Shown here piece after piece: positions 13,242 through 56,435 of a stretch of 64,000 bases of DNA; positions within the stretch are counted from its first letter, which is position 1, and every line of letters begins with the position of its first letter. Source of the stretch: a bacterium (GTDB lineage Bacteria > Myxococcota > UBA727 > JAUIJE01); assembly GCA_030431455.1 (NCBI GenBank), contig JAUIJE010000002.1, forward strand, positions 65,294 through 129,293, in the 5' to 3' direction. Both the position numbers and the translations under genes were made by a program. Below the pieces are notes generated by a model. That model was given only the letters and a program-made list of their open reading frames with translations. It had not been told where the DNA came from and searched no databases.

Positions 13242-14042
13242 ATGCGCAAAATCATCCTCCTGTTCGCCCTCGCCCTGTCCCCGCTGGCTTTGACCGCCTG
13301 CCCCGCCACCTCCGGCGATGGCGACGGAGACGGAGACGGAGATGGCGACGGCGACGGCGACCTCGACGGCGGGACCGGGGACGGAGACGGAGACGGAGAC
13401 GGAGACGGAGACGGGGACGGCGATGGTGACGGAGACGGGGACGGGGATGGCGATGGCGACGGGGACGGAGATGGCGACGGAGATGGCGACGGAGACGGCG
13501 ATGGCGATGGCGATGGTGACGGGGACGGAGATGGCGTGGACGCGGGGTTGCCGTTTGATTTTGACGGGGGCTTCCCCAACCCGTTCGGCGATGGGGGCTT
13601 TTCGTTCGGCGACGGGGGGTTGTTCCCGGCGACCGACGGGGGCCTGGTCGACCTGATGGAGTACCGCGGGGAGATCGAGGACGGCGTGCGCTGCGGCGAG
13701 ACGCTCGATGCCTGCGAGGTCGACGACACCTGCTGCGTGAGCTTGTTGTTTGGCACCACCTGCGTCTCCGACGCGAGCCAGTGCAGCTCCTTTCCGTTTT
13801 CGTGCGACGGGGACGAAGACTGCGCGGGCGGGGAAGAGTGTTGCCTGACCAACAATGTGCAGGCATTCCAATCACAGAGCGAGTGCCGGCCCGCCGGACA
13901 GTGCAACCAGACCGACGACTACCGCGTGTGCGTCGAGCCCGAAGACTGCGAACCGATGGGCCAGACCTGCTGCGGCACCGACAACCTCTTCGGGTTCATG
14001 ATCCCCCTCGACCTCGGCTTCTGCCAAGACAGCTGCGGCTGA
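13242..14042 (+). CDS. lipoprotein with long (GD)n linker and C-terminal Cys-rich (about 20 Cys) domain
   Basis: [21 protein letters not shown] lipobox, about 50 GD dipeptides, then [15 protein letters not shown]...[14 protein letters not shown]...CQDSCG. Divergent from the kyn operon. Confidence 0.6.
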
Positions 14043-40110: not shown

Positions 40111-41760
40111 TCAGTACCGCTCGGGGGTGGCGGGGAGCGCGGAGGGGGCTTCGATGTTCTGACGAACGGTGGCGAGCCACTGGTCGCTGCGCACCGAAGC
40201 GGAGACCCGGACCTCGTCGATGTCGCCCTCGGTGGGCCAGGCGCCGGCGAGACTCCAGACGTTGCCGACGACCAGGCGGTCGGTGTCGGCGGTGAAGGTC
40301 TGGCCTGAAGTCACCGTGGCGGACGCGTTCTGGTCGGCGTTGAGGGTGCCTTGGGCGGTGGGCCCGGCCCCGCTGAAGTCCAGCCGGGTGACCAGAAAGC
40401 GGGGCGCGGTGTCCGACCCGGGCACGATCACCGCCGCCGCGTAGGCACTGTTGGCCGCCCGCCCATCGAACAGAAACGCGCTCCCGTTGAACCAGATGTT
40501 CAAGCTGTAGTCCGAGCCCGGCGCGCCGCCGGGCTGCTCGAGGCCGGCGACCTGGTAGCCGCTGTTGTCGTCGTTGTTGTCCAGCCACGCCGACACCGTG
40601 GCCGCGGGCATGCTCGCCACCAGGGGCAGGTCGTTCCACCTGCACCCCCCGCTGCCCGGGTTGTTGGGGGTGCGCTGGGCGTACCCAATGTGGTTGCTCC
40701 CAAGCGCCAATGTTGTTTGGTCATCGCACTGGTCGGCGGGCGCGCCGGTGATCACATCGGTGGGCAGACCCGCTTGGTTCGGGGTCATGTGGGTCACAAA
40801 CGCGTAGCCCGCGTCGAGCCACACCGCGACGGGGTCGTTGCCCGGGGGCGGCGCGGGCTCGACCAGCTCGTCGTAGATGTCGATCACCACCGGGGCGGTC
40901 GCCGACAACCCCGCGCTCACCCACATGTAGCCGGGCTGGTCCTCGTCGGGGGCGAGCTCGATGTCGTACGCCGCGGCCTGGCCGTTGGCCACCACCCGCG
41001 CGTCCTCGGTGAGCACGGTCTGGGCCGGCACCTCGACCAACCAGGGGAAGGGCGCGGCGAGCGCGACCTGGGAAAAGCCCGCCCCCACCGTGCGGTACCG
41101 CTGGCGGCGGTTGAGGTCGGCCCAGTCGGCCGGCACCGCGGTGGTCTCGAGCTCGAGCTCGACCTCGTGGCCGGCCGCGGCCCGCAGCGTGACCGCGAGA
41201 CGGGCCGCGCAGGGGTCGACAAACGCCACCGCCACCGTGAGGTCGGGGCCGCTCAGGTCGGTCATGGCCGACGGCAACGTGGCGCAGTCGTGCAGGGGTT
41301 GGACCACGACGTCCACCTGGCCGTTTTGCAGCCCGGTCACCGGCCCGGTCACCGACAAGACCGTGGGGGTGACGTCGTTGTTCAGGACCGTGCGGTGCAC
41401 AAGCGCCACCGCCCACGTCGGGTCGCCGTCGCCTGAAGAACCGGCGTCGACGGCGCCGCCATCAGGCGGCCCGTCGCCGTCACCGTCGCCGTCGCCGTCG
41501 CCGTCACCTGAAGAGCCGGCGTCGACGGCGCCGCCATCAGGCGGCCCGTCACCGTCACCGTCACCGTCGCCTGAAGAGCCGGCGTCGACGGCACCGCCGT
41601 CGGGGCGCCCGTCACCGTCACCGTCACCGTCACCGCCCCCCGCGTCGGCGGCGCAGGTCGGCCCTTCGCACGGGGCTGCCCACCAGAACGAACACCCCCC
41701 GCCCGCGAGCGCCAACCAGAGCACCGCCAACCCGAGCGGGACGCGAACCGCCTCCTTCAT
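40111..41760 (-). CDS. lipoprotein with N-terminal Cys motif, (GD)n linker and C-terminal LamG/concanavalin-like domain
   Basis: LALAGGGCSFWWAAPCEGPTCAAD, then GDGDGD repeats; the C-terminal ...VGNVWSLAGAWPTEGDIDEVRVSASVRS has the LamG pattern. Confidence 0.65.
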   Translation of the reverse strand: MKEAVRVPLGLAVLWLALAGGGCSFWWAAPCEGPTCAADAGGGDGDGDGDGRPDGGAVDAGSSGDGDGDGDGPPDGGAVDAGSSGDGDGDGDGDGDGPPDGGAVDAGSSGDGDPTWAVALVHRTVLNNDVTPTVLSVTGPVTGLQNGQVDVVVQPLHDCATLPSAMTDLSGPDLTVAVAFVDPCAARLAVTLRAAAGHEVELELETTAVPADWADLNRRQRYRTVGAGFSQVALAAPFPWLVEVPAQTVLTEDARVVANGQAAAYDIELAPDEDQPGYMWVSAGLSATAPVVIDIYDELVEPAPPPGNDPVAVWLDAGYAFVTHMTPNQAGLPTDVITGAPADQCDDQTTLALGSNHIGYAQRTPNNPGSGGCRWNDLPLVASMPAATVSAWLDNNDDNSGYQVAGLEQPGGAPGSDYSLNIWFNGSAFLFDGRAANSAYAAAVIVPGSDTAPRFLVTRLDFSGAGPTAQGTLNADQNASATVTSGQTFTADTDRLVVGNVWSLAGAWPTEGDIDEVRVSASVRSDQWLATVRQNIEAPSALPATPERY

Positions 41761-41778
41761 ACACGCCAGTGTAGCCCG

Positions 41779-44073
41779 CTAGCGTCGCCGACGACGCGCG
41801 GCGAAGGCCAGACCGAACAGGCCGAGCCCCGCCCACGCCGCGTCGGCCGGGGTCTGGCTGTCGCAGGTGCAGCCCCAAGGCCCATCCTGGCCGGGCCCGG
41901 CATCCTGACCCCCGGGTACCCGGCCTCCATCGAGCCTGGTCCCCGCGTCCCCGGAGCGCCCCGCGTCGATGACGGGCGCCGCGTCGGGCATCGCCGCGTC
42001 GGGGGTGTTCGCCGCCGCGTCGGGGGTGCTCGCCGCCGCGTCAGGGGTGTGGGCCGCCGCGTCGGGGGTGTGGGCCGCCGCGTCGGGCACGGCCGCATCG
42101 GACGCGCCTCCGTCGATGACGACCACACCCGCGTCGACCCCGGCGTCTGGGGGCTCGGGCATGGGCTCCACCGCCCGGTTGGGTCCCGCCTCGGACGTCG
42201 CGCCATCGCTGTTCACGGTCAGCGCGGTCACGGGCATCCCCAATGCCACTGGTGTGTTGAGGGCCGTGGGCATGGGCAGCACACAATCAAACTGCCCGGC
42301 CAAGACCGGGCACGCCCCGAGATGGTCCCCGGGCTCTCCGTGCGGGACCGCGGCCCCGCCGGGCGTGGTGGCGCCGGCGTTGTCCCCGTCGTCGTTGGCC
42401 ACGTGCACGCGCACCTCCGTGACCCCCGGGGAGCCCACCGTACCCACCACCCACAGGTCCCCGTCGTCGGTGAGCGCAGCCAGAGTCAAGACCGGCATGT
42501 CCACGGGCGCGCCTTGGCCGTCGTTGGGCGTGACCCCCGGGCCCGCGAGATCGACGCCGAGCCCGGCGCTGTCTGCGCTCACGCTGCGATCCCAGGCCAC
42601 GACGTCGGCCGCCCCCTGCGCACGCACCGCCGCGCCCCCGTTCTGGGTGAACCAAGACCGCCGCACGGTGCTCAACGTGCCCGGCCCCCCGATGAACACC
42701 CCGTCGCCGGCCGCGCCGGTGAGGGTGCTGTCCTCGATGAGCAACCCCCCACCGCCCCCGCCGAACGCGTCGAGGTACACCCCGCTGAACCCGCTGTCCC
42801 GCACCACGGAGCGCACGATCTCGTCGCCGGTGGTGCCGGACAAAAACACCGCGGGGGGGCCACTCGCGGCCACGCCCTCGACCACACACTCCTCGAGCCG
42901 GACCTGGCCCCCCATCATCTCGACCGCGCCGCCCGACACCGCAATGAGACTGCGCTTGATCGTGAAGCCGGTCTCGCCGAAGGCGTTGAACGCGCCGAGC
43001 GGATAGAGCGCCCCGAGGCCCGGCGGCACCGGCGCGCCCAGTTCGTCAACCCCGATGAACATGTCCTCGACCACCGCGTCATCCCGCTGGGCCACCACCC
43101 CCGCCCCCTGCAGTCCCATGGCGCGCACGCTGCCCGCGGGGGCGGCGAGGCTGAGCGGAAATTCTAAGGTCGCCCACAACATCGGCACGGCCAGAGGCGC
43201 GACCTCGAGTTCGTCCCCGGACTGCGCGATGCCGTCGGGCCCGACCCCCACCGGGCCCACCGGGTAGCTGGCCCCGGTCCAGACCCGCTGCGCGCCGAGG
43301 GGACAGGTGATGCCGTTGCACCACGCGCGTCCGTCGACGGGCACGGTCAGCGACGGCAGGGGGCTCAGCGGCGTCACCCGGAACACCTCACCTCCAGGAT
43401 CATTGGGCGGCACCGCGGGCACAAAACGCACCGCGTCGGCCACCCCGACTTCAGCATTTTGCAGCGCCTGGCGGAACGAGCCCTGGACGGTCTGGGCGCC
43501 GGGGGGCACGTCGTCGCCGTCGCGCGGATGGGTCACGACCCCGGCGGCAAACCCGAACACCAAGGCCTCGGGACCCGCTCCGCTGGCTTCTGCCACGTGT
43601 TCGGCCACGCCCACGTTCTGGAGTTGTACATCGGACCCTCCGCCGGTGCGGCCGCCGAAGCAGGGGCCTGGCGCCCCCCGCTGCAGGGTGCCTCCACTCC
43701 CGTCGGCACAGAACGCCCCGCGGCCGCCGTAGGTTTGTTCGGCCCACGCGGGAGCGGGCAGCACCGTGAAGCTGTTGACGGCAAACCACCAGGTCCCGTC
43801 GACCACGGTGAACACGGCCGTCCCGGTCGCATCGGTGGTGGCGAAGGCGAGGGGCAAATCGTCGATGCCCGTCGGTACGCCGTCGAGGAGGTCTTGGTAC
43901 GCGATGACCTCGACGCCCTCGAGGGGCACCCCATCGGCGATGTCCCCGTCGCCGTTGGGATCGAGCAGCACCGTCACGGTCACGTCGAGGGCGGCCGCCC
44001 CGGGGGCCCAAAGGCACGTCAACAGCCCGAGGGCGCGCAGGGAATGGGTGGGCCATGGGTGGCGTGTCGTCAT
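41779..44073 (-). CDS. secreted right-handed beta-helix protein with MYXO-CTERM sorting tail
   Basis: Signal peptide; DVTVTVLLDPNGDGD (Cna-B-like); beta-helix region with SFRQALQNAE motif. The C-terminus GCTCDSQTPADAAWAGLGLFGLAFAARRRRR is Cys plus TM plus Arg tail. Confidence 0.75.
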   Translation of the reverse strand: MTTRHPWPTHSLRALGLLTCLWAPGAAALDVTVTVLLDPNGDGDIADGVPLEGVEVIAYQDLLDGVPTGIDDLPLAFATTDATGTAVFTVVDGTWWFAVNSFTVLPAPAWAEQTYGGRGAFCADGSGGTLQRGAPGPCFGGRTGGGSDVQLQNVGVAEHVAEASGAGPEALVFGFAAGVVTHPRDGDDVPPGAQTVQGSFRQALQNAEVGVADAVRFVPAVPPNDPGGEVFRVTPLSPLPSLTVPVDGRAWCNGITCPLGAQRVWTGASYPVGPVGVGPDGIAQSGDELEVAPLAVPMLWATLEFPLSLAAPAGSVRAMGLQGAGVVAQRDDAVVEDMFIGVDELGAPVPPGLGALYPLGAFNAFGETGFTIKRSLIAVSGGAVEMMGGQVRLEECVVEGVAASGPPAVFLSGTTGDEIVRSVVRDSGFSGVYLDAFGGGGGGLLIEDSTLTGAAGDGVFIGGPGTLSTVRRSWFTQNGGAAVRAQGAADVVAWDRSVSADSAGLGVDLAGPGVTPNDGQGAPVDMPVLTLAALTDDGDLWVVGTVGSPGVTEVRVHVANDDGDNAGATTPGGAAVPHGEPGDHLGACPVLAGQFDCVLPMPTALNTPVALGMPVTALTVNSDGATSEAGPNRAVEPMPEPPDAGVDAGVVVIDGGASDAAVPDAAAHTPDAAAHTPDAAASTPDAAANTPDAAMPDAAPVIDAGRSGDAGTRLDGGRVPGGQDAGPGQDGPWGCTCDSQTPADAAWAGLGLFGLAFAARRRRR

Positions 44074-49108: not shown

Positions 49109-49180
49109 CCCCTTCACGGCTCGCAAGCTCACCGAGTCAGGGGCCCCACCCCCGAGTCGCCGCTCCAACGGCCTCCGGCC

Positions 49181-49550
49181 GGTCGCGGCGGCGCCGTATG
49201 CCGTGGCCATTCCGGAGGAATGGCTGAAGCAACGCGAAGCGTTGCCATCGCATACGGCCCGCTTCGGCGTCCAGGCCGTCCCCTTGCATCGCAAGGGGAA
49301 CGCAACGCGTGCGTTGCCCCTCACCCTCATACGTGTTCTGCGCCGTGAAGGTCGCCGGTCGCGGCGGCGCCGTATGCCGTGGCCATTCCGGAGGAATGGC
49401 TGAAGCAACGCGAAGCGTTGCCAGGACATTCCGGAGGAATGGCTGAAGCAACGCAAGGCGTTGCCAGGACATTCCGGAGGAATGGCTGAAGCAACCCAAG
49501 GCGTTGCCAGGACATGCCGGAGGAATGGCTAGAGCGAGGGTGTTGGCGAC
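49181..49550. repeat. array of about 43-bp hairpin-containing repeats (core CATTCCGGAGGAATGGCTGAAGCAACGCGAAGCGTTGCC)
   Basis: Core copies start at 49207, 49383, 49427, 49470 and 49513 (the last is degenerate). Copies 2-5 are head-to-tail with a 43-44 bp period. Each carries two palindromes (CCATTCC-gga-GGAATGG and GCAACGC-gaa-GCGTTGC). A longer 66-bp unit is duplicated at 49181 and 49357. Confidence 0.7.
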
Positions 49551-49772
49551 CCGTCATACATGAACATTGTGTCCGGCGCGTCTCAAGACCGACGCGAGGG
49601 GAAACGGCGGCGCGCAACGGGCTGAAAGGTCGCTGAATCCCGTGCCGTCTGCGGGGCCTCACCGCCTGGCCTGCGCGCGCCCAACGACAAAACGCACCCG
49701 AGGGTGCGTTTTGCCGGTCACGGGCGATCACCGTCGATCGCAATGTGACAGTGTGGTTGTCTGGGGAAAAAC

Positions 49773-50249
49773 CTATTGGGCCACCGGGCCGGCGTCGCTG
49801 TCGCCGGTCCCCGCGTCGTCGCCGCCCTCTTCGATCACGGTGCACTCGCCGTCGATCACACCCGCGTCGCCTTCGTCGATGGGGTTGCCCGCGTCGTCGA
49901 GGGCTTCCACCGGGGCCGGCTCGTCACAGCCGTCGCAGTCATGGTCGACGCCGTCGCCGGCGAGGTCCTCGGAGCCGGGGTGGATGAGCTCGTTGTTGTC
50001 GTTGCAGTCGTCGATCTCGGCGCAGTAGCCGTCGCCGTCGTTGTCGGTGCAATCGAGACCGGTGCCCACCCCGTAGCAAGCCATCAAGGTCACGCTCAGC
50101 GCGCTGCCCACCGTCGTGGCCATCAGGCCCCGGTAGATTTTGGTGATCGACAGACCCGGCCCGGCGATGCGGGCGTCGCAGTGGGGACAGACGCGTGCGC
50201 CCGTCGGCAAGAACCCTTCACAAGACGAACAAGAACTCAGTTTTGGCAT
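49773..50249 (-). CDS. zinc-ribbon / single-TM protein with MopE-like putative metal-binding Cys/Asp motifs
   Basis: Start at ATG 50249, with GGAGGG 8 nt upstream. CSSCEG...CPHCDAR zinc ribbon, a TM helix, then DCTDNDGDGYCAEIDDCNDNN...DHDCDGCDE. Confidence 0.55.
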   Translation of the reverse strand: MPKLSSCSSCEGFLPTGARVCPHCDARIAGPGLSITKIYRGLMATTVGSALSVTLMACYGVGTGLDCTDNDGDGYCAEIDDCNDNNELIHPGSEDLAGDGVDHDCDGCDEPAPVEALDDAGNPIDEGDAGVIDGECTVIEEGGDDAGTGDSDAGPVAQ

Positions 50250-50508
50250 TTTTCCACCCTCCGATTTTGTCAGTGCCATTGCGCCAGGGGCGCGGTTGCC
50301 ATGAGCACAATCCACGCACCGTGCCAGGTGACTCTGCCCGCCTGGCATCGCGATCTGCGGCCTCGGCACCGCGACAGACGCGCCCGCCGGGGGACACGGA
50401 TGTCGCGATCGGCGCCGCCCCCAGGGCCCGCGACCGGCTCGCCCCGGGCCTTTCCGGCTTTGACCCGCCTGGCGCACGCATTGCACTGTAGAGCCGCGGG
50501 AGGTGTTC

Positions 50509-51732
50509 ATGTCCAATCGCCGGCGCATCGAGATCAAAGACCACGGCTTCTACCCGGCCTATGTCGTCTGGGAGCTGACCCTCAAGTGTGACCACCTCTG
50601 CCACCACTGTGGCTCCCGCGCGGGCCGGGCCCGGGACGAAGAGCTCGACCTCGAGCAGGCCCTCTCGGTGGTGGACCAAATGGCGGCCATGGGCACCCGC
50701 GAGGTCGTGCTCATCGGCGGCGAAGCCTACCTCTACGAGCACCACCTCGCGGTCATCCGCGCCCTGCGCGCCCACGACATCAACGTGTGCATCACCACCG
50801 GCGGCCGCGGCATCACCCGTGAGCGTGCACAAGCATTGGCGGAGGCCGGCGTACGCCTGGTGTCCGTGTCCATCGACGGCCTCGAGGCCGAACACAACCA
50901 AATCCGCAACAGCCAGGGCAGCTTCCAATCCACCATGCGCGCCCTCGACAACCTGCGCGCGGCCGGCATCAAGACCGGCTCCAACATCAACATCAACCGC
51001 ATCAACCAACACTGCCTCGAGGACCTCTACGAACACCTCAAGGGCAAGGGCATCGACGTCTGGCAGGTACAGATCACCTCCGCCCTCGGCCGGGCCGCGG
51101 ACCGCCCCGAAATGTTGCTGCAACCCTACGACTTGCTCACGGTCATGCCCCGCATCGCCGCCCTCAAGGAGCGCGCGATCCGAGACGGCATCTCCATGAT
51201 GCCGGGCAACAACCTCGGCTACTTCGGGCCCGAAGAGAAGCTTTTGCGTTCGCTCAAAAAAGACCACCAAGACCACTGGGCCGGCTGCCAGGCGGGACGC
51301 TTCGTGATGGGCATCGAGTCCGACGGGGGGGTCAAGGGCTGCCCGTCCCTGCAGTCAGACAGTTACATTGGGGGGCACGTGACCGAACGCCCCTTGCGCG
51401 AGATCTGGGACCAGACCGAGCGGCTCGCCTTCGCCCGGTCCCGCACCCGTGAAGACCTCTGGGGGCACTGCGCGGAGTGTGTGTTCGCCGATACCTGCCT
51501 CGGGGGGTGTTCGTTCACCGCCCACGCGTTGTTCGGGCGGCCGGGCAACAATCCGTATTGCCACTTCCGCGCCCAGCAGTTCGACAAGCGCGGCCTGCGC
51601 GAACGCCTGGTGCGCACCGAGGCCGCGCCCGGGCTGCCCTTCGACCACGCCAAGTTCGAGATCGTCGTCGAGGAAGTGCCCGCCACCGACCGCGAAGCCT
51701 CCGCGCCCCGCCGCCTCAAGGTCGTCGCCTAG
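50509..51732 (+). CDS. radical SAM / SPASM-domain enzyme (peptide-modifying or anSME-like maturase)
   Basis: CDHLCHHC (CxxxCxxC) radical-SAM cluster; C-terminal SPASM Cys pattern GCQAGRF...GGVKGCPSL...GHCAECVFADTCLGGCSF...YCHF. GGGAGG RBS 6 nt before the ATG. Confidence 0.85.
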   Translation: MSNRRRIEIKDHGFYPAYVVWELTLKCDHLCHHCGSRAGRARDEELDLEQALSVVDQMAAMGTREVVLIGGEAYLYEHHLAVIRALRAHDINVCITTGGRGITRERAQALAEAGVRLVSVSIDGLEAEHNQIRNSQGSFQSTMRALDNLRAAGIKTGSNININRINQHCLEDLYEHLKGKGIDVWQVQITSALGRAADRPEMLLQPYDLLTVMPRIAALKERAIRDGISMMPGNNLGYFGPEEKLLRSLKKDHQDHWAGCQAGRFVMGIESDGGVKGCPSLQSDSYIGGHVTERPLREIWDQTERLAFARSRTREDLWGHCAECVFADTCLGGCSFTAHALFGRPGNNPYCHFRAQQFDKRGLRERLVRTEAAPGLPFDHAKFEIVVEEVPATDREASAPRRLKVVA

Positions 51733-51796
51733 GCCCTCCACGGGCCAAAAAAAAAGCGCACCCCGTGGGGGTGCGCCTTTTTGTGCACAGCGGGGT

Positions 51797-53158
51797 TTAG
51801 ATCACGCCGGGCAGACGAGCGCCGAGGCCGCCTTTGAGCTTGGGCGCTTTGCCACCCTCGGCGCGCGAGCTGAACACCAGCTCGATGGCTTTGCCCGCGA
51901 CGTTTTCGTTGTCGCGCGGGGTGACCACCAAGGGGTCGCCCTCTTGCACGTTGCCGAGGTTGAGGTTGAGGGTGCGGTCGTCGGGGATGGTGGCGGTGAA
52001 GGTCTCGCCCGAGCGGGTGTTGAGCACCGTGACCGTGGCCCGCGGCTCCATCGCCCCGAAGCCGGACAGGCTCACCGAACGTTTGAAGTTGCGCACCAGC
52101 GCCAGGTCGTTGCGGCTGATGATGCCGTCCTCGGCCGAGTTGTTGACCTGCTCGAACGCGGCGAAGCGCTCCTTGTCCGAGGTGAGCTCCTTGAGCGCGT
52201 TGCGGGTGGTCTCCGACAGCGTCTCGTCTTTGCTCGCCTTGACCAGGTCGTCGAGGTTGAGGTTGGCGTTGTTGTCCTTGCCCGCGGCCTTGGCGATGTT
52301 GCCGTATTGGCCGTAGAGCACGTTGGCGACCGCGGAGTCGTTCTCGTCGAAGCGACAATCCTCGACGAGGCTGAGCTTGTCCTCGAGGATCTGCGGCGGA
52401 CGGGTGTCGTTGACCGCTTTGATGATGAGATTCTTGCGGGCGGCCTCGCCGTCGAGGGCGTTGAGCTGGCCGCCGCGGGTGGCGACGTTGCGGTTGTCGA
52501 CCCGCTCGGTGACCATGCCGTTGGCCCAGTCGTCGGGCTCGAACTCGCCGGTGACGGGCATCGAGGGGTTGCCCGAGTGGTCGACCTGGCGGAGCTGGAA
52601 CACGTCGCCCGGCTCGATGCCGAACTTCTTCATCTGGTCCGCGTTGAGGTACACCGCGCCTTCGCGGCGCTCGACGTTGCGGCCGGTGAGGGTCAGCTCG
52701 GTGACGTCGTTTTTGCGCTCAAAGTTGGCGCTGGGGTCTTTGGAGAGGTTGATCAGCTGCAGGGTGCTGCCGAGCTCGACGTTGCGCAGCTCGAGGTACA
52801 CCGGATCGCGGCCCGCGGGGCGGATGGTGGTGGTGCGGTTGGGGCGGAAGGTGGCGCCCTCGGCCGCCCGGTCGAACGCGCGGGCGTTGACGATCTGCGG
52901 GGTGGGCGCGGGCTCCATGTCCGACTTGTCGTGGCGGGAGCACGCGTTGAGGAAGTTGACGATGGCCTGTTTGGCGTCGCCGTCGAGCTTGGGCCCGAGC
53001 TGGGTCACGATGCCCTCGAGGTCTTTGCGCTCGTTTTTGGACAGGCGGTTGCCGTCGCGGGCCGCGTCGAGGAGCTGTTGCGCGTCCTGTTGGCTGATGT
53101 TGCCGTCTTGGATGGCTTGGGTGTACGCGGAACGAATCTTCGAGTCGCGGATTTGCAT
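51797..53158 (-). CDS. hypothetical cytoplasmic protein (N/K/D-rich, EF-hand-like tandem DGNxS motifs at N-terminus)
   Basis: 453 aa, GC3-biased, GGAG RBS, no signal peptide. It sits 180 bp downstream of large module gene 2 and is convergent with the rSAM gene. Confidence 0.5.
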   Translation of the reverse strand: MQIRDSKIRSAYTQAIQDGNISQQDAQQLLDAARDGNRLSKNERKDLEGIVTQLGPKLDGDAKQAIVNFLNACSRHDKSDMEPAPTPQIVNARAFDRAAEGATFRPNRTTTIRPAGRDPVYLELRNVELGSTLQLINLSKDPSANFERKNDVTELTLTGRNVERREGAVYLNADQMKKFGIEPGDVFQLRQVDHSGNPSMPVTGEFEPDDWANGMVTERVDNRNVATRGGQLNALDGEAARKNLIIKAVNDTRPPQILEDKLSLVEDCRFDENDSAVANVLYGQYGNIAKAAGKDNNANLNLDDLVKASKDETLSETTRNALKELTSDKERFAAFEQVNNSAEDGIISRNDLALVRNFKRSVSLSGFGAMEPRATVTVLNTRSGETFTATIPDDRTLNLNLGNVQEGDPLVVTPRDNENVAGKAIELVFSSRAEGGKAPKLKGGLGARLPGVI

Positions 53159-53337: not shown

Positions 53338-55710
53338 TCAGGGGAGCAGCTGCACGGTGGTGGCGGGCAGGGCGCGGGTGTACAGGCGCACCTCGTCGAT
53401 GGTGCCGGGGAACCAGTACCCGCCTTCGTAGGTGCCGAGGGTCATCGGCTCGCTGCCCGCGATGGAGCCGAAGGTGGGCGGGATGAGCGCGAGATCGACC
53501 AACGCGGCGTCGACATACCCCCGGGCTTCGCCGGCCGCGCGATCGAACACCAATGACAAACAATGGGGGGCGCCAGCGAGGGCGTCGGTCCCGAAATCGA
53601 CCACCACCACGGTTTCGTTCACGTCGACGATGTTGGCGTACCAAGACCCCGCGCCCGCGTTGAACAACACCCCCGCTTGGTCGGGGGTGCCGCCGCCGAG
53701 GGAAAAGGGGTTTTCGTTGACGTCGCTGGGGGGCGCCTGGTTGACGCAGGCAAACACGGTGAACGATTCGGCCCCGAGCAGGTCGGAGGTCACGCTGGGA
53801 ACGGTCACATAGGTGTTGGGGCCCGTGACAATGCCATTGCCCAACACGCCGGGGGCCTGGCCGGGGTTGCCCACCAGGACCCCGTCGTGGCCCGCGCCGG
53901 TGTGGTCGGTGACGCCGCCCACCGTCGACTCGAAGCTGTAGTACAGGAGCAGGTCGTCGGGGGGCCCTTGGTGTTCGATGGCGCCGCTGTCGCAGGCCGC
54001 GCCCACCGGGCGGGGGCGCCCGAAGATGTCCGTGGCCGGACACGGGCCGACCGCGCGGTCGATGGCCAATGATGACAAGCGCTGGCCCCAGGGCAAGCCA
54101 AAGCCAAAGGGCTCGTCGGCAAACGGGGACACCGCGGTCGGGGACACGACGTCGCTGGGGCCGGTGCAGATGGGGTCTGGCCCGACGAACACATTCTGGC
54201 CTTGGGAGGTCACGGTGCCGCCCCCGCCGATGAGGCACAGGGCGCTGGCGCTGCCTTGATCAAACACATTGGCGCGAATGTTGACGCTCGGCCCCAAAAA
54301 CAGGTGAAGGCCCACCGGGGTGTTGTTGATGAAGGTGCTGAACGCCACCGTGTTGGTGCTGTTGCCGCAGAACAACACCGCGCCTTCGGTGCCCGGCGAG
54401 GTGTTGTCGACGAACAAGCTCCCGGTGATGGTCAGGCTGACCGGGTCGCAGTTCTGGTCGATGGCGGCGCCCCCCGACGTGGCGGTGTTGCCCTCGAACA
54501 CGCTGGCTTCGATGGTGCTCGAGAACGCGCCCCCGATGAACGCCACCGCGCCACCGAAATCGGTGGCCTGGTTGGACTCGAACCGCGCGCCCACGATCGT
54601 GGTGGGCGTGTCCCGCAGGGCGAGCGCGCCCCCCTTGGTGCCGCCTTGGGCGGCGTTGCCGCTGAACCACGCGTCGCGCACCGTGAGGTCCGAGAGCTCG
54701 GCGCTGATCGCCCCCCCGCCGTCGCTGTCGACGTCGCCCGGCGCGTCCTGCGCGACGTTGTTCACAAACTGGCAGTCGTCGACCACCAACGTCGTGTTCA
54801 GGGCCCGGACCGCGCCCCCCCCGTCGGCGTCGCTGGTCACGCCGTTGCTGAACGCGAGGTGGCGCAGCTCGACGGTGGTGTCCTCGAACCGAAAAAACCG
54901 CTCCAACGACGCAAACGACGTGTGCGCGGCCAAGCCGCCCTCGATGATCATCGCGTCGACATCGCCCATCACCACCTGGGCCAACAGGGTCACCGACGGC
55001 ACCCCCAGCCGCACAAACCAGGGCCCGTTGGGCGCGGCTTGGGCCTCGGCCAACGCCGCCCGCAGCGTGCAGGTGCCGGCCCCGGTGGCACACACCCCGT
55101 CGCCCGGGGTCAGGTCCACCTCGTCGCCGCCGTCGTCGACAAGCAGGTAGGCGTGGTCCGCCTCAACACAAACCGCGTGGGCCTCGGCCGCGGGCACGCC
55201 GCCCGGGGTGCCGCCCAACCCGCACCACACCGCGTCACAGCGCACCGGCTCGAGGAGGCCGCACGCCGGGTCCGGCGCGCCGCAGCCACAATCGCACACC
55301 GCGTCGCCGTGCCGCGCCGGGTCGCAGAACCAATCGCCCGGCACCCCGCCATCGGGCCCGACCACACCCGCATCTCCCGCGTCGCTGACCCCGGCGTCCG
55401 CATCGCCGTCGCCATCGCCATCCCCGTCGCCATCCCCGTCCCCGTCGCCGTCGCCATCCCCGTCCCCGTCGCCATCGCCGTCCCCATCGCCATCCCCGTC
55501 CCCATCCCCGTCCCCATCTCCATCCCCGTCCCCATCGCCGTCCCCGTCCCCGTCGCCGTCGCCGTCGCCCGCTTGGCACACCCCGTCGAGGCACCGGTCG
55601 CCACCGGGACAGTTGGCGTCGCCGTCGCACGGCAGCGGCGTGAGCCCCCAGGTCAAACACCCGGTGCTCGCCACCCCCCAACACAAAAGCCACGCCCCCC
55701 GCCAGGTCAT
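53338..55710 (-). CDS. large lipoprotein: Cys knot, (GD)n linker, right-handed beta-helix, C-terminal LamG-like domain, module copy 2
   Basis: Start at ATG 55710 (MTWRGAWLLCWGVASTGC...CDGDANCPGGDRCLDGVCQAGDGDGD...). CTLRAALAEAQ motif; beta-helix repeats; the C-terminal ...GYWFPGTIDEVRLYTRAL has the LamG pattern. The start overlaps the small partner's stop (ATGA). Confidence 0.75.
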   Translation of the reverse strand: MTWRGAWLLCWGVASTGCLTWGLTPLPCDGDANCPGGDRCLDGVCQAGDGDGDGDGDGDGDGDGDGDGDGDGDGDGDGDGDGDGDGDGDGDGDGDGDGDGDGDADAGVSDAGDAGVVGPDGGVPGDWFCDPARHGDAVCDCGCGAPDPACGLLEPVRCDAVWCGLGGTPGGVPAAEAHAVCVEADHAYLLVDDGGDEVDLTPGDGVCATGAGTCTLRAALAEAQAAPNGPWFVRLGVPSVTLLAQVVMGDVDAMIIEGGLAAHTSFASLERFFRFEDTTVELRHLAFSNGVTSDADGGGAVRALNTTLVVDDCQFVNNVAQDAPGDVDSDGGGAISAELSDLTVRDAWFSGNAAQGGTKGGALALRDTPTTIVGARFESNQATDFGGAVAFIGGAFSSTIEASVFEGNTATSGGAAIDQNCDPVSLTITGSLFVDNTSPGTEGAVLFCGNSTNTVAFSTFINNTPVGLHLFLGPSVNIRANVFDQGSASALCLIGGGGTVTSQGQNVFVGPDPICTGPSDVVSPTAVSPFADEPFGFGLPWGQRLSSLAIDRAVGPCPATDIFGRPRPVGAACDSGAIEHQGPPDDLLLYYSFESTVGGVTDHTGAGHDGVLVGNPGQAPGVLGNGIVTGPNTYVTVPSVTSDLLGAESFTVFACVNQAPPSDVNENPFSLGGGTPDQAGVLFNAGAGSWYANIVDVNETVVVVDFGTDALAGAPHCLSLVFDRAAGEARGYVDAALVDLALIPPTFGSIAGSEPMTLGTYEGGYWFPGTIDEVRLYTRALPATTVQLLP

Positions 55711-56435
55711 TCGACAAGCCCCCACACCAACAGGCCCGCGCCGGCGGCGAGGGACACGACGACGACCACCGGCCCGGCCACGGTGTTGGCCCGGCCCCAC
55801 AGCACCAAACCCGCGCGAACGTCCCCCGGGCTCGACGGGGTGGACAACAGCTGCTCGACGAGCAGGGCTTGGCCGAGCACCGCGGTCGCGGCGAGCGCGC
55901 CGAGCACCAACGCGCCGCCCCCCGCCCACAACATCCACGGCACGCCGCCGGCCGGGGTTTTGGCCGGGGCCACCGGGTCGGGGGGGTGGGCCGCGCCGGT
56001 GGTGAACTTGACCTCGTCGCGCACGAGCTCGAAGAAAGACAGAATCTTCGGCGGGGTGTCCGGCGGCAGTTGGTGGTCGGGCTCGCGCTGCAACACGTGC
56101 AGGAAGTTGAGGCGGGCCTGGACGTCATGGCCGATGACGACGTTGGCCATGCCCGCGTAGAGGTTGGCTTCAAAACGTTGCGCCTTGGTGGCGCCTTTGT
56201 CGCTGGCGGCGATCATCAACTCGTCCGCGGCGGTCTGGTACTCGAGGTTCTCCAGGGCCGCCTTGCCCCGCTCGATGTGGCGGTCGACGTCGTCCGGCGA
56301 GGACAGCGGGGCCAACCAGAGGATGCACACGGCGGTGAGCACAGGGTCGTGACTATCGCAAAACCGCCCCGCCGCCGTCGAGCGACCGCGCGCATACAAA
56401 GTGCGACATCGGGCGCGGCCGGGCCGGGCCGGCAT
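55707..56435 (-). CDS. small TPR-like membrane-anchored protein, module copy 2
   Basis: ...CDSHDPVLTAVCILWLAPLSS signal-like region, then NLEYQTAADELM...RFEANLYAGMANVVIGHDVQARLNFLHVLQREP...PPKILSFFELVRDEV, a Pro linker and a TM hairpin. The start is uncertain (ATG 56435 or GTG 56342). Confidence 0.6.
   Translation of the reverse strand: MPARPGRARCRTLYARGRSTAAGRFCDSHDPVLTAVCILWLAPLSSPDDVDRHIERGKAALENLEYQTAADELMIAASDKGATKAQRFEANLYAGMANVVIGHDVQARLNFLHVLQREPDHQLPPDTPPKILSFFELVRDEVKFTTGAAHPPDPVAPAKTPAGGVPWMLWAGGGALVLGALAATAVLGQALLVEQLLSTPSSPGDVRAGLVLWGRANTVAGPVVVVVSLAAGAGLLVWGLVE

What the first reader, a model, noticed from the sequence alone, without database searches (positions are those of the whole stretch)
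49773..53158. Radical SAM/SPASM maturase with no obvious precursor peptide, flanked by a zinc-ribbon/MopE-motif membrane protein and a 453-aa N/K-rich cytoplasmic protein
The rSAM/SPASM enzyme (CxxxCxxC plus a full SPASM Cys set) is of the type that matures RiPPs or installs cofactors or formylglycine. No short (<100 aa) GC3-biased ORF is evident in the 260-bp divergent intergenic region or downstream. The nearest candidates are atypical. One is the divergent 158-aa protein with an N-terminal zinc ribbon, one TM helix and an extracellular Cys/Asp-rich MopE-like segment; Cys/Asp-rich segments are classic SPASM substrates (thioether or Cys modification). The other is the convergent 453-aa protein with EF-hand-like DGNxS repeats.
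Basis: inference. Interest (0 to 1): 0.55.

Follow-up and report, generated by a model that had tools for sequence, protein, structure and literature searches.

The report
Splicease-type radical SAM with lipoprotein substrate
The "orphan" radical SAM enzyme is most likely a tyramine-excising splicease whose substrate is the neighbouring 158-aa zinc-ribbon lipoprotein precursor, at an invariant Cys-Tyr-Gly site, and this unannotated gene pair is conserved across myxobacteria.

Summary
The three genes exist as described. The radical SAM/SPASM enzyme (50509-51732, +) is not an anSME, PqqE or thioether synthase. Its only strong matches are TIGR04103, the family of the PlpX splicease (429 bits), and TIGR03913 (411 bits). 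Both are below the curated cut-offs, and the next family scores 148 bits.

It belongs to a distinct, unnamed family, 59-66% identical across Myxococcota. In 80 related genome loci the only conserved neighbour is a homologue of the divergent 158-aa protein. That homologue was found in 75 of 80 loci, in three different gene arrangements.

The MopE-like Cys/Asp segment is not what is conserved in that protein (present in 26 of 70). The conserved parts are an N-terminal CxxC...CxxC zinc ribbon and a short hydrophobic segment ending in a lipobox-like T-L-[M/S/A]-A-C followed by Y-G. A-C-Y-G is present in 70 of 70. Rare variants keep A/I/L/E-Y-G with a separate upstream Cys. XYG is the known splicease motif.

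The 453-aa protein is an unrelated neighbour.

[quoted passage not shown] This is untested biochemically. I could not read Scott et al. 2022, so prior description cannot be excluded.

The parts
49773..50249 (-). 158-aa partner and putative substrate: zinc ribbon, signal-peptide-like segment, lipobox Cys-Tyr-Gly, acidic tail with MopE-like motif
   Evidence: ORF. Identical 158-aa gene call in public data. Homologue adjacent to the rSAM in 75 of 80 loci.
50178..50231 (-). N-terminal zinc ribbon, residues 7-24 (C7, C10, C21, C24). Candidate recognition or leader element.
   Evidence: The four Cys are invariant in 52 of 52 and 55 of 55 aligned partners. Weak Pfam DZR, Zn_ribbon_3 and UPF0547 hits. 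pLDDT 86-91.
50079..50132 (-). Hydrophobic h-region, residues 40-57, ending in T54-L55-M56-A57 (lipobox positions -4 to -1)
   Evidence: The uncharged stretch is typically 16-17 aa. 67 of 70 partners fit the lipoprotein signal-peptide pattern. Position -3 is L in 69 of 70, -2 is M/S/A, -1 is A in 70 of 70.
50070..50078 (-). C58-Y59-G60: proposed XYG splice site, with X being the lipobox cysteine
   Evidence: CYG in 70 of 70 partners. Y and G are invariant even in variants where X is A, I, L or E. The reverse complement of 50070-50078 reads TGC TAC GGG.
49926..50009 (-). MopE-like 'putative metal-binding motif', residues 81-108. Variable cargo, not the conserved feature.
   Evidence: PF11617 at 25.5 bits, cut-off 27. 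A comparable motif is present in only 26 of 70 partners.
50250..50508 (.). Divergent intergenic region shared by the two genes. Both genes have strong Shine-Dalgarno sequences.
   Evidence: Sequence. No sigma-70 consensus found.
50509..51732 (+). Radical SAM/SPASM enzyme, 407 aa, splicease-like
   Evidence: TIGR04103 1.1e-128 and TIGR03913 3.7e-123, next family 2.6e-43. Pfam. Conserved family. AlphaFold2 pTM 0.80. Closest solved folds are SkfB, PqqE, SuiB and anSME.
50587..50610 (+). CxxxCxxC radical SAM cluster motif (C27, C31, C34)
   Evidence: Invariant in alignment A1. Sequence.
51286..51561 (+). SPASM auxiliary-cluster cysteines C260, C278, C321, C324, C330, C334, C351
   Evidence: All invariant in A1. 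Positions. Pfam SPASM at residues 262-326.
51756..51776 (.). GC-rich hairpin flanked by an A-run and a T-run: bidirectional terminator between the rSAM and the convergent 453-aa gene
49685..49716 (.). Terminator-like hairpin about 57 nt downstream of the 158-aa gene
   Evidence: Inverted repeat I1, 15-nt arms, 93% complementary.

Best explanation
This is a two-gene module made of an enzyme and its protein substrate.

The cytoplasmic radical SAM/SPASM enzyme is a splicease-type maturase. It acts on the newly made 158-aa protein at C58-Y59-G60. By analogy with PlpX-type spliceases, it excises a tyramine equivalent from Tyr59 (a loss of 135.07 Da) and rejoins the backbone. [quoted passage not shown]

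The substrate's conserved N-terminus would serve as a combined leader and export signal. It consists of a zinc ribbon, a basic linker, and a 16-17-residue hydrophobic segment ending in L-M-A-C. After export, the lipobox cysteine would be lipidated and the leader cut off by signal peptidase II. That would leave a short, acidic, variable lipoprotein whose first residues carry the ketoamide.

Shown here:
- enzyme family relationships;
- conserved adjacency of the two genes;
- invariance of the zinc-ribbon cysteines and of A-x-Y-G;
- the lipobox-like pattern.

Inferred:
- the chemistry;
- the leader role of the zinc ribbon;
- lipidation and cleavage;
- the order of events.
For: (1) The enzyme's two top NCBIfam matches are TIGR04103 (429 bits) and TIGR03913 (411 bits), full length. 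The third match scores 148 bits. Ten relatives give 380-467 bits. PlpX, the founding splicease, belongs to IPR026482, which I equate with TIGR04103 from memory, and excises tyramine at Xaa-Tyr-Gly (PMC11002830; PMC11414181; PMC9811515).

(2) In unbiased clustering of all ORFs within 5 kb of the enzyme in 80 loci, the partner was the only conserved neighbour. The HMM found it in 75 of 80 loci. A further locus (L076) retains only a contig-truncated partner C-terminus. Of the 72 loci with a complete partner, 34 are divergent, 32 are on the same strand directly upstream (median gap 24 bp) and 6 are downstream. Some loci carry two or three partner paralogues.

(3) A-C-Y-G is present in 70 of 70 partners. 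Everything after it is variable.

(4) Natural variants keep Y-G while X changes. Examples are AYGVPPC, IYGLPPC, LYGVPC and EYG/AYG repeats, each with a separate lipobox-like Cys a few residues upstream. This argues for Tyr-Gly-directed chemistry rather than Cys-directed chemistry.

(5) The extended motif A-X-Y-G-[LVM]-P-P resembles the core of a Nif11 precursor next to a bona fide TIGR04103 enzyme in Nostoc (...IALYGLPPELF). It also resembles PlpA splice tags (PIRPLYGLPI). DUF1843 peptides next to TIGR03913 enzymes carry PYG.

(6) Binary splicease systems without a Y protein are known.

(7) Lipoprotein reading: 67 of 70 partners fit the signal-peptide and lipobox pattern. UniRef names one orthologue 'Lipoprotein'.
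Against: - No biochemical data exist for this family.
- The enzyme scores below the curated cut-offs of both named families, so its chemistry could differ.
- Cys is the residue at X in at least 90% of partners, which leaves room for Cys-specific chemistry.
- The lipobox Cys lies at residues 50-65, far later than in typical lipoprotein signal peptides. The hydrophobic segment could instead be a membrane anchor.
- It is unknown whether Lgt, LspA and Lnt would accept a ketoamide cysteine.
- Four of 80 loci show no adjacent partner.
- No enzyme-substrate complex could be modelled with the tools available.
Confidence: 0.65

Rival explanations
1. One reading: the rSAM/SPASM enzyme forms thioether or other cross-links in the Cys/Asp-rich MopE-like segment of the 158-aa protein, in the manner of ranthipeptide or sactipeptide synthases.
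For: The window protein has a Cys/Asp-rich segment (PF11617 at 25.5 bits). SPASM enzymes of this kind exist, and weak hits to StsB and SkfB-type maturases appear.
Against: The MopE-like motif is present in only 26 of 70 partners, and many partners have Cys-free tails. Thioether-synthase families score 82-89 bits, against 411-429 bits for the splicease-related families. The invariant residues lie elsewhere.
Confidence: 0.05
2. The enzyme modifies Cys58 itself, or links Cys58 to Tyr59. Possibilities include oxidation to formylglycine, a Cys-Tyr thioether, or another reaction at the lipidation cysteine. Tyramine is not excised.
For: Cys is at this position in at least 90% of partners, directly next to an invariant Tyr. 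The enzyme is below the cut-offs of the characterised families.
Against: Variants with A, I, L or E before an invariant Y-G are still encoded next to the same enzyme family. The anSME model scores only 58 bits. Sister families sit next to PYG and LYG peptides without Cys at X.
Confidence: 0.15
3. The adjacency is not an enzyme-substrate relationship. The zinc-ribbon membrane protein would be a regulator, anchor or partner, and the rSAM would act on an unlinked peptide or a cofactor.
For: Nif11-type precursors can be encoded far from their maturases (general knowledge). Four loci lack an adjacent partner.
Against: Only the splice-motif region and the zinc ribbon are conserved in the partner. 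No sigma factor, regulator or third gene is conserved nearby. The operon arrangement with a 24-bp gap is typical of a precursor-maturase pair.
Confidence: 0.1

Closest known systems
Spliceotide pathways: PlpX/PcpX (type I, with a Y protein) and RhaX/RcsX/RasX (type II, binary) radical SAM spliceases; NCBIfam TIGR04103 / InterPro IPR026482
   Same: rSAM plus full SPASM architecture. TIGR04103 is the best-scoring HMM, matching full length at about 45% identity to a Nostoc member. The adjacent substrate has an invariant X-Y-G followed by [LVM]-P-P-like residues. The system is binary, with no Y protein, like the non-cyanobacterial types.
   Different: It scores below the family cut-off (429 against 725 bits). 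The substrate has no Nif11 or NHLP leader; instead it has a zinc ribbon fused to a signal-peptide-like segment. The splice-site residue X is normally a lipobox cysteine. The product would be a membrane lipoprotein rather than a secreted peptide. The pair is conserved across a whole phylum (59-66% identity), unlike typical patchy RiPP clusters.
TIGR03913 'GDL motif peptide-associated radical SAM/SPASM maturase', found with DUF1843 and DUF1842 proteins (Burkholderia, Azospirillum)
   Same: Second-best HMM (411 bits), at about 43-45% identity. The neighbouring small proteins also carry X-Y-G (PYG).
   Different: It scores below the cut-off (592 bits). The partner here is not DUF1843 and has no GDL motif. 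TIGR03913 enzymes are longer (about 490-515 aa).
Bacterial lipoprotein precursors (lipobox L-[ASTVI]-[GAS]-C, processed by Lgt, LspA and Lnt)
   Same: A basic stretch, a 16-17-residue uncharged h-region, and L-[M/S/A]-A-C.
   Different: The n-region is about 35-45 residues long and contains a folded zinc ribbon. Positions +2 and +3 are invariant Y-G. Processing is untested.
MopE / PF11617 'putative metal-binding motif' proteins of myxobacteria
   Same: The window protein and about a third of its homologues carry one such motif.
   Different: The motif is dispensable in this family and is not what links the protein to the rSAM.

Membership tests
Splicease / spliceotide system (PlpX-like) | Radical SAM CxxxCxxC plus a SPASM domain with a full auxiliary Cys set | tested here: met
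Splicease / spliceotide system (PlpX-like) | Sequence membership in TIGR04103 above the curated cut-off | tested here: not met
   429 bits against a cut-off of 725. It is nevertheless the top hit, far above unrelated SPASM families. The same holds for 10 relatives.
Splicease / spliceotide system (PlpX-like) | Co-encoded precursor with a conserved X-Y-G motif | tested here: met
   CYG in 70 of 70 partners. YG is invariant in variants. Adjacency in 75 of 80 loci.
Splicease / spliceotide system (PlpX-like) | Nif11 or NHLP leader on the precursor, and a PqqD-like Y protein (type I only) | tested here: not met
   The partner has no NCBIfam or Pfam leader match. No third conserved gene. These features are not required in binary types.
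Splicease / spliceotide system (PlpX-like) | [quoted passage not shown] | not testable with these tools
   Requires co-expression and MS/MS.
TIGR03913 GDL-motif peptide maturase | HMM score above the cut-off, and DUF1843 (GDL-motif) peptide neighbours | tested here: not met
   411 bits against a cut-off of 592. The partner is unrelated to DUF1843.
Anaerobic sulfatase-maturating enzyme (anSME) | TIGR03942 membership | tested here: not met
   58 bits against a cut-off of 349. The anSME fold appears only as a generic SPASM neighbour.
PqqE, mycofactocin, heme (AhbD, NirJ) cofactor rSAMs | Equivalog HMM above the cut-off | tested here: not met
   82-127 bits against cut-offs of 265-515.
Sactipeptide / ranthipeptide thioether synthases | Family HMM, and a Cys-rich core conserved in the substrate | tested here: not met
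   StsB 89 bits and SkfB 82 bits. The Cys/Asp segment is absent from most partners.
Bacterial lipoprotein precursor | Positively charged n-region, short h-region, lipobox [LVI][ASTVIM][GAS]C | tested here: met
   67 of 70 fit the pattern. This is a pattern match only. The Cys position (residues 50-65) is atypically late.
Bacterial lipoprotein precursor | Lipidation and LspA cleavage | not testable with these tools
   Needs globomycin or lipid-labelling experiments.
PF11617 MopE-type metal-binding motif | Pfam gathering score | tested here: inconclusive
   25.5 bits against 27. The precomputed annotation lists PF11617 for the identical protein.

The most novel reading that the evidence does not exclude
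[quoted passage not shown] The signal peptide, extended by a zinc ribbon, would double as the RiPP leader, and signal peptidase II would act as the leader peptidase. The result would be a membrane-tethered electrophilic ketoamide, for example a natural inhibitor or covalent trap for an envelope serine or cysteine protease. That would give spliceotides a first physiological, non-secondary-metabolite role.
Probability: 0.3. Interest if true: 0.85.

Novelty: new variant of a known kind. Interest (0 to 1): 0.6.

Why it matters
Spliceases are the only known route to backbone beta-amino acids and ketoamides in ribosomal products. According to a 2022 review, their final natural products in native hosts remained elusive (PMC9811515).

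This pair is conserved across Myxococcota. Its splice site coincides with a lipoprotein lipidation site. That would point to a housekeeping role in the cell envelope and to a new kind of leader: a zinc ribbon plus a signal peptide.

Both families are currently annotated only as 'radical SAM protein' and as 'hypothetical' or 'putative metal-binding motif-containing protein'. A simple annotation rule could therefore be added. The prediction is directly testable by co-expression and mass spectrometry.

Tried and rejected
- **Short precursor ORF.** I looked in the 260-bp spacer and downstream. Only overlapping high-GC shadow ORFs are there, and none is conserved.
- **The 453-aa protein as partner.** tblastn found no homologue in 80 loci. 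It has no Pfam, NCBIfam or PDB match. It belongs to a small uncharacterised family (128 representatives). Its LYGQYG is not conserved in that family.
- **PBP1A upstream.** Not conserved next to the rSAM.
- **anSME, PqqE, heme or mycofactocin assignment.** Rejected on HMM scores.
- **Literature.** Scott et al. 2022 (Chem 8:2659), which catalogues 939 predicted splicease systems, is not in the library. Searches for splicease together with myxobacteria, lipoprotein or zinc ribbon found nothing relevant.
- **PDB.** No solved splicease structure. The closest folds are generic SPASM enzymes. The fold search with the partner gave only insignificant zinc-finger hits.
- **Modelling the enzyme-substrate complex.** Not attempted. 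The structure tool takes single chains of window or database sequences and returns no coordinates.
- **Loci without a partner.** Four loci (L031, L048, L062, L066) showed no alternative YG precursor that I could recognise.
Full report
**Observation.** The region holds three genes.
- A 158-aa gene on the minus strand (49773-50249).
- A divergent 407-aa radical SAM/SPASM gene (ATG at 50509, stop at 51732).
- A convergent 453-aa gene (51797-53158).

A public contig with an identical 158-aa product carries the same three gene calls of 158, 407 and 453 aa. Both divergent genes have strong Shine-Dalgarno sequences. A GC-rich hairpin flanked by A and T runs (51756-51776) separates the rSAM from the 453-aa gene. 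Another hairpin (49685-49716) follows the 158-aa gene. In this window the two divergent genes are therefore separate transcription units sharing a 260-bp spacer.

The enzyme has the C27-x3-C31-x2-C34 motif and a complete SPASM cysteine set. Its AlphaFold2 model (pTM 0.80) is a partial TIM barrel plus SPASM domain. The nearest solved folds are SkfB, PqqE, SuiB and anSME. No splicease structure exists in the PDB.

**What the enzyme is related to.** Against NCBIfam there are two full-length matches: TIGR04103 'nif11-class peptide radical SAM maturase 3' (429 bits, 1.1e-128) and TIGR03913 'GDL motif peptide-associated maturase' (411 bits). They stand far above everything else. The next family scores 148 bits, PqqE 82 and anSME 58. 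Both top matches are below their curated cut-offs of 725 and 592 bits. Ten relatives behave the same way, at 380-467 bits.

The enzyme therefore belongs to a third, unnamed family in the same clade. That family is large and unusually conserved. 6737 database proteins score below 1e-20, and the best 120 are 60-66% identical. Where a source names them, they are called 'radical SAM protein', with one labelled 'heme biosynthesis protein'. At least 565 species-level genome loci encode a relative. The best 80 loci are 58-65% identical. By record title they are Myxococcota (Sorangium, Polyangium, Archangium, Nannocystis, Plesiocystis, Kofleriaceae, Labilithrix and others). The exceptions are one Oligoflexales MAG and a few MAGs labelled only Proteobacteria or Deltaproteobacteria.

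**Which neighbours matter.** I clustered all ORFs within 5 kb of the enzyme in the 80 loci. Apart from antisense shadow ORFs of the enzyme itself, only one neighbour family is conserved: homologues of the 158-aa protein. tblastn finds them in 71 loci. An HMM of the N-terminal module finds them in 75 of 80 loci plus the window. One further locus (L076) retains only a contig-truncated partner C-terminus.

Of the 72 loci with a complete partner:
- 34 are divergent;
- 32 are on the same strand directly upstream (median gap 24 bp, operon-like);
- 6 are directly downstream.

Adjacency preserved through three arrangements indicates functional coupling. Several loci carry two or three partner paralogues. 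The 453-aa protein and the upstream PBP1A have no homologue in any of the 80 loci.

**What is conserved in the partner.** All 70 extracted partners contain A-C-Y-G. Position -4 is T (66 of 70), -3 is L (69 of 70), -2 is M, S or A, and -1 is A (70 of 70). Position +4 after the motif is usually P (48 of 70). The sequence then becomes variable, acidic and often low-complexity, with a median mature length of about 75 aa.

The four zinc-ribbon cysteines are also invariant.

The segment before the Cys is a 16-17-residue uncharged stretch preceded by basic residues. 67 of 70 partners fit the lipoprotein signal-peptide and lipobox pattern. UniRef labels one orthologue 'Lipoprotein'. AlphaFold2 models a confident zinc ribbon (residues 1-30), a low-confidence helix ending at residue 58, and a fairly confident MopE-like knot.

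**Informative variants.** A few Myxococcaceae and Archangiaceae partners separate the two features. In ...LAASSC-GPALMA-AYG-VPPC...VSSSC-SPVA-IYG-LPPC...LSNC-GSQMA-LYG-VPC and ...ANNC-NTAVA-LYG-VPC, a Cys ends the hydrophobic segment and X-Y-G follows five or six residues later, with X being A, I or L. Plesiocystis paralogues have canonical L-V-G-C or L-T-G-C lipoboxes followed by AYG and EYG repeats.

Tyr-Gly is therefore the constant, X can vary, and the Cys keeps its lipobox-like context. This favours Tyr-Gly-directed chemistry over Cys-directed chemistry. It also supports the lipoprotein reading.

**Link to known chemistry.** PlpX, the founding splicease, is a member of IPR026482, which I equate with TIGR04103 from memory. 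[quoted passage not shown] Non-cyanobacterial systems are binary, with no Y protein, and are sorted into types by enzyme phylogeny and precursor identity (PMC11414181).

I checked the sister families directly on plasmid records.
- A Nostoc TIGR04103 enzyme sits after a Nif11 precursor ending ...IALYGLPPELF.
- TIGR03913 enzymes in Burkholderia and Azospirillum, and an unnamed relative in Aureibacter, sit after DUF1843 peptides carrying PYG.

All three branches of the clade are thus encoded next to X-Y-G proteins. The myxobacterial A-X-Y-G-[LVM]-P-P resembles the cyanobacterial core.

**Most likely mechanism.** The enzyme binds the nascent partner in the cytoplasm. The zinc ribbon and/or the hydrophobic helix would act as leader; this is inferred. 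The enzyme abstracts a hydrogen with the 5'-deoxyadenosyl radical and excises tyramine from Tyr59. That converts Cys58 to a ketoamide residue, by inference from family and motif. The protein is then exported, lipidated on that cysteine and cleaved by LspA; this is inferred from pattern only. The tail is variable cargo and in the window carries one putative metal-binding motif.

I put 0.65 on the splicease-substrate reading and roughly 0.5 on the lipoprotein step.

**Rivals.**
- Thioether formation in the Cys/Asp segment: 0.05.
- Cys58-specific or Cys-Tyr chemistry: 0.15.
- A non-substrate relationship: 0.1.

Reasons are given in the rival entries.

**The 453-aa protein.** It is a genuine gene (GC3 0.93) from a small uncharacterised family: 128 representatives at E no greater than 1e-3, with a conserved C-terminal ...RLPGVI. 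It is unrelated to the module.

**Novelty and caveat.** Neither family has an NCBIfam or Pfam model, nor a functional name. I found no paper in the library linking spliceases to myxobacteria, lipoproteins or zinc ribbons. The key survey is Scott et al. 2022, with 939 predicted systems in 189 genera. It is not held, so this type may already be listed there. I therefore rate the finding as a new variant of a known kind, of moderate to high interest.

Noticed in passing
window 49178-49535: The intergenic region between PBP1A and the 158-aa gene holds a 70-nt exact duplicate (49178-49247 and 49354-49423). It also holds four or five tandem 43-nt units, each containing the palindrome-like CATTCCGGAGGAATG. 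This looks like a REP/MITE-like repeat array.
   Followed up: partly
window 51797-53158 (-): The 453-aa protein belongs to a small uncharacterised family (128 representatives) with a conserved C-terminal ...GKAPKLKGGLGARLPGVI. Its N-terminal 75-aa module with DGNIS and DGNRLS motifs is present in only a few members and also occurs in other proteins. It has no Pfam, NCBIfam or PDB match.
   Followed up: partly
L069 3-830 (Plesiocystis pacifica SIR-1): Two extra tandem paralogues of the partner, about 7 kb from the rSAM. They have canonical LVGC and LTGC lipoboxes and several downstream AYG/EYG-[VL]-P repeats, which suggests multi-site substrates.
   Followed up: partly
L082 560-751; L083 2299-2754; L085 1701-2414: DUF1843 'GDL motif' peptides next to TIGR03913-type rSAMs carry an N-terminal P-Y-G. 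This is consistent with these being splicease substrates too. One Aureibacter copy has LYA instead.
   Followed up: partly
L084 3630-3899 (Nostoc sp. C057 plasmid): A Nif11-like precursor ends ...GGRGSIALYGLPPELF directly upstream of a TIGR04103 enzyme and a 71-aa hypothetical protein that may be a Y protein. The extended YGLPP motif matches the myxobacterial partners.
   Followed up: no
window 40111-44073, 53338-55938 and 13242-14042: Several large secreted proteins carry long (DG)n repeats. At least one has a C-terminal Cys-containing hydrophobic tail ending in an Arg run, which resembles MYXO-CTERM. This is typical of marine or Nannocystineae-type myxobacteria.
   Followed up: no
window 50070-50060 (residues 58-64 of the 158-aa protein): The window's partner reads CYGVGTG. 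It lacks the Pro-Pro that follows the motif in most homologues.
   Followed up: no
L031, L048, L062, L066: Four loci, including the only non-Myxococcota one (an Oligoflexales MAG, GC 49%), have the rSAM but no recognisable partner within 8 kb.
   Followed up: partly
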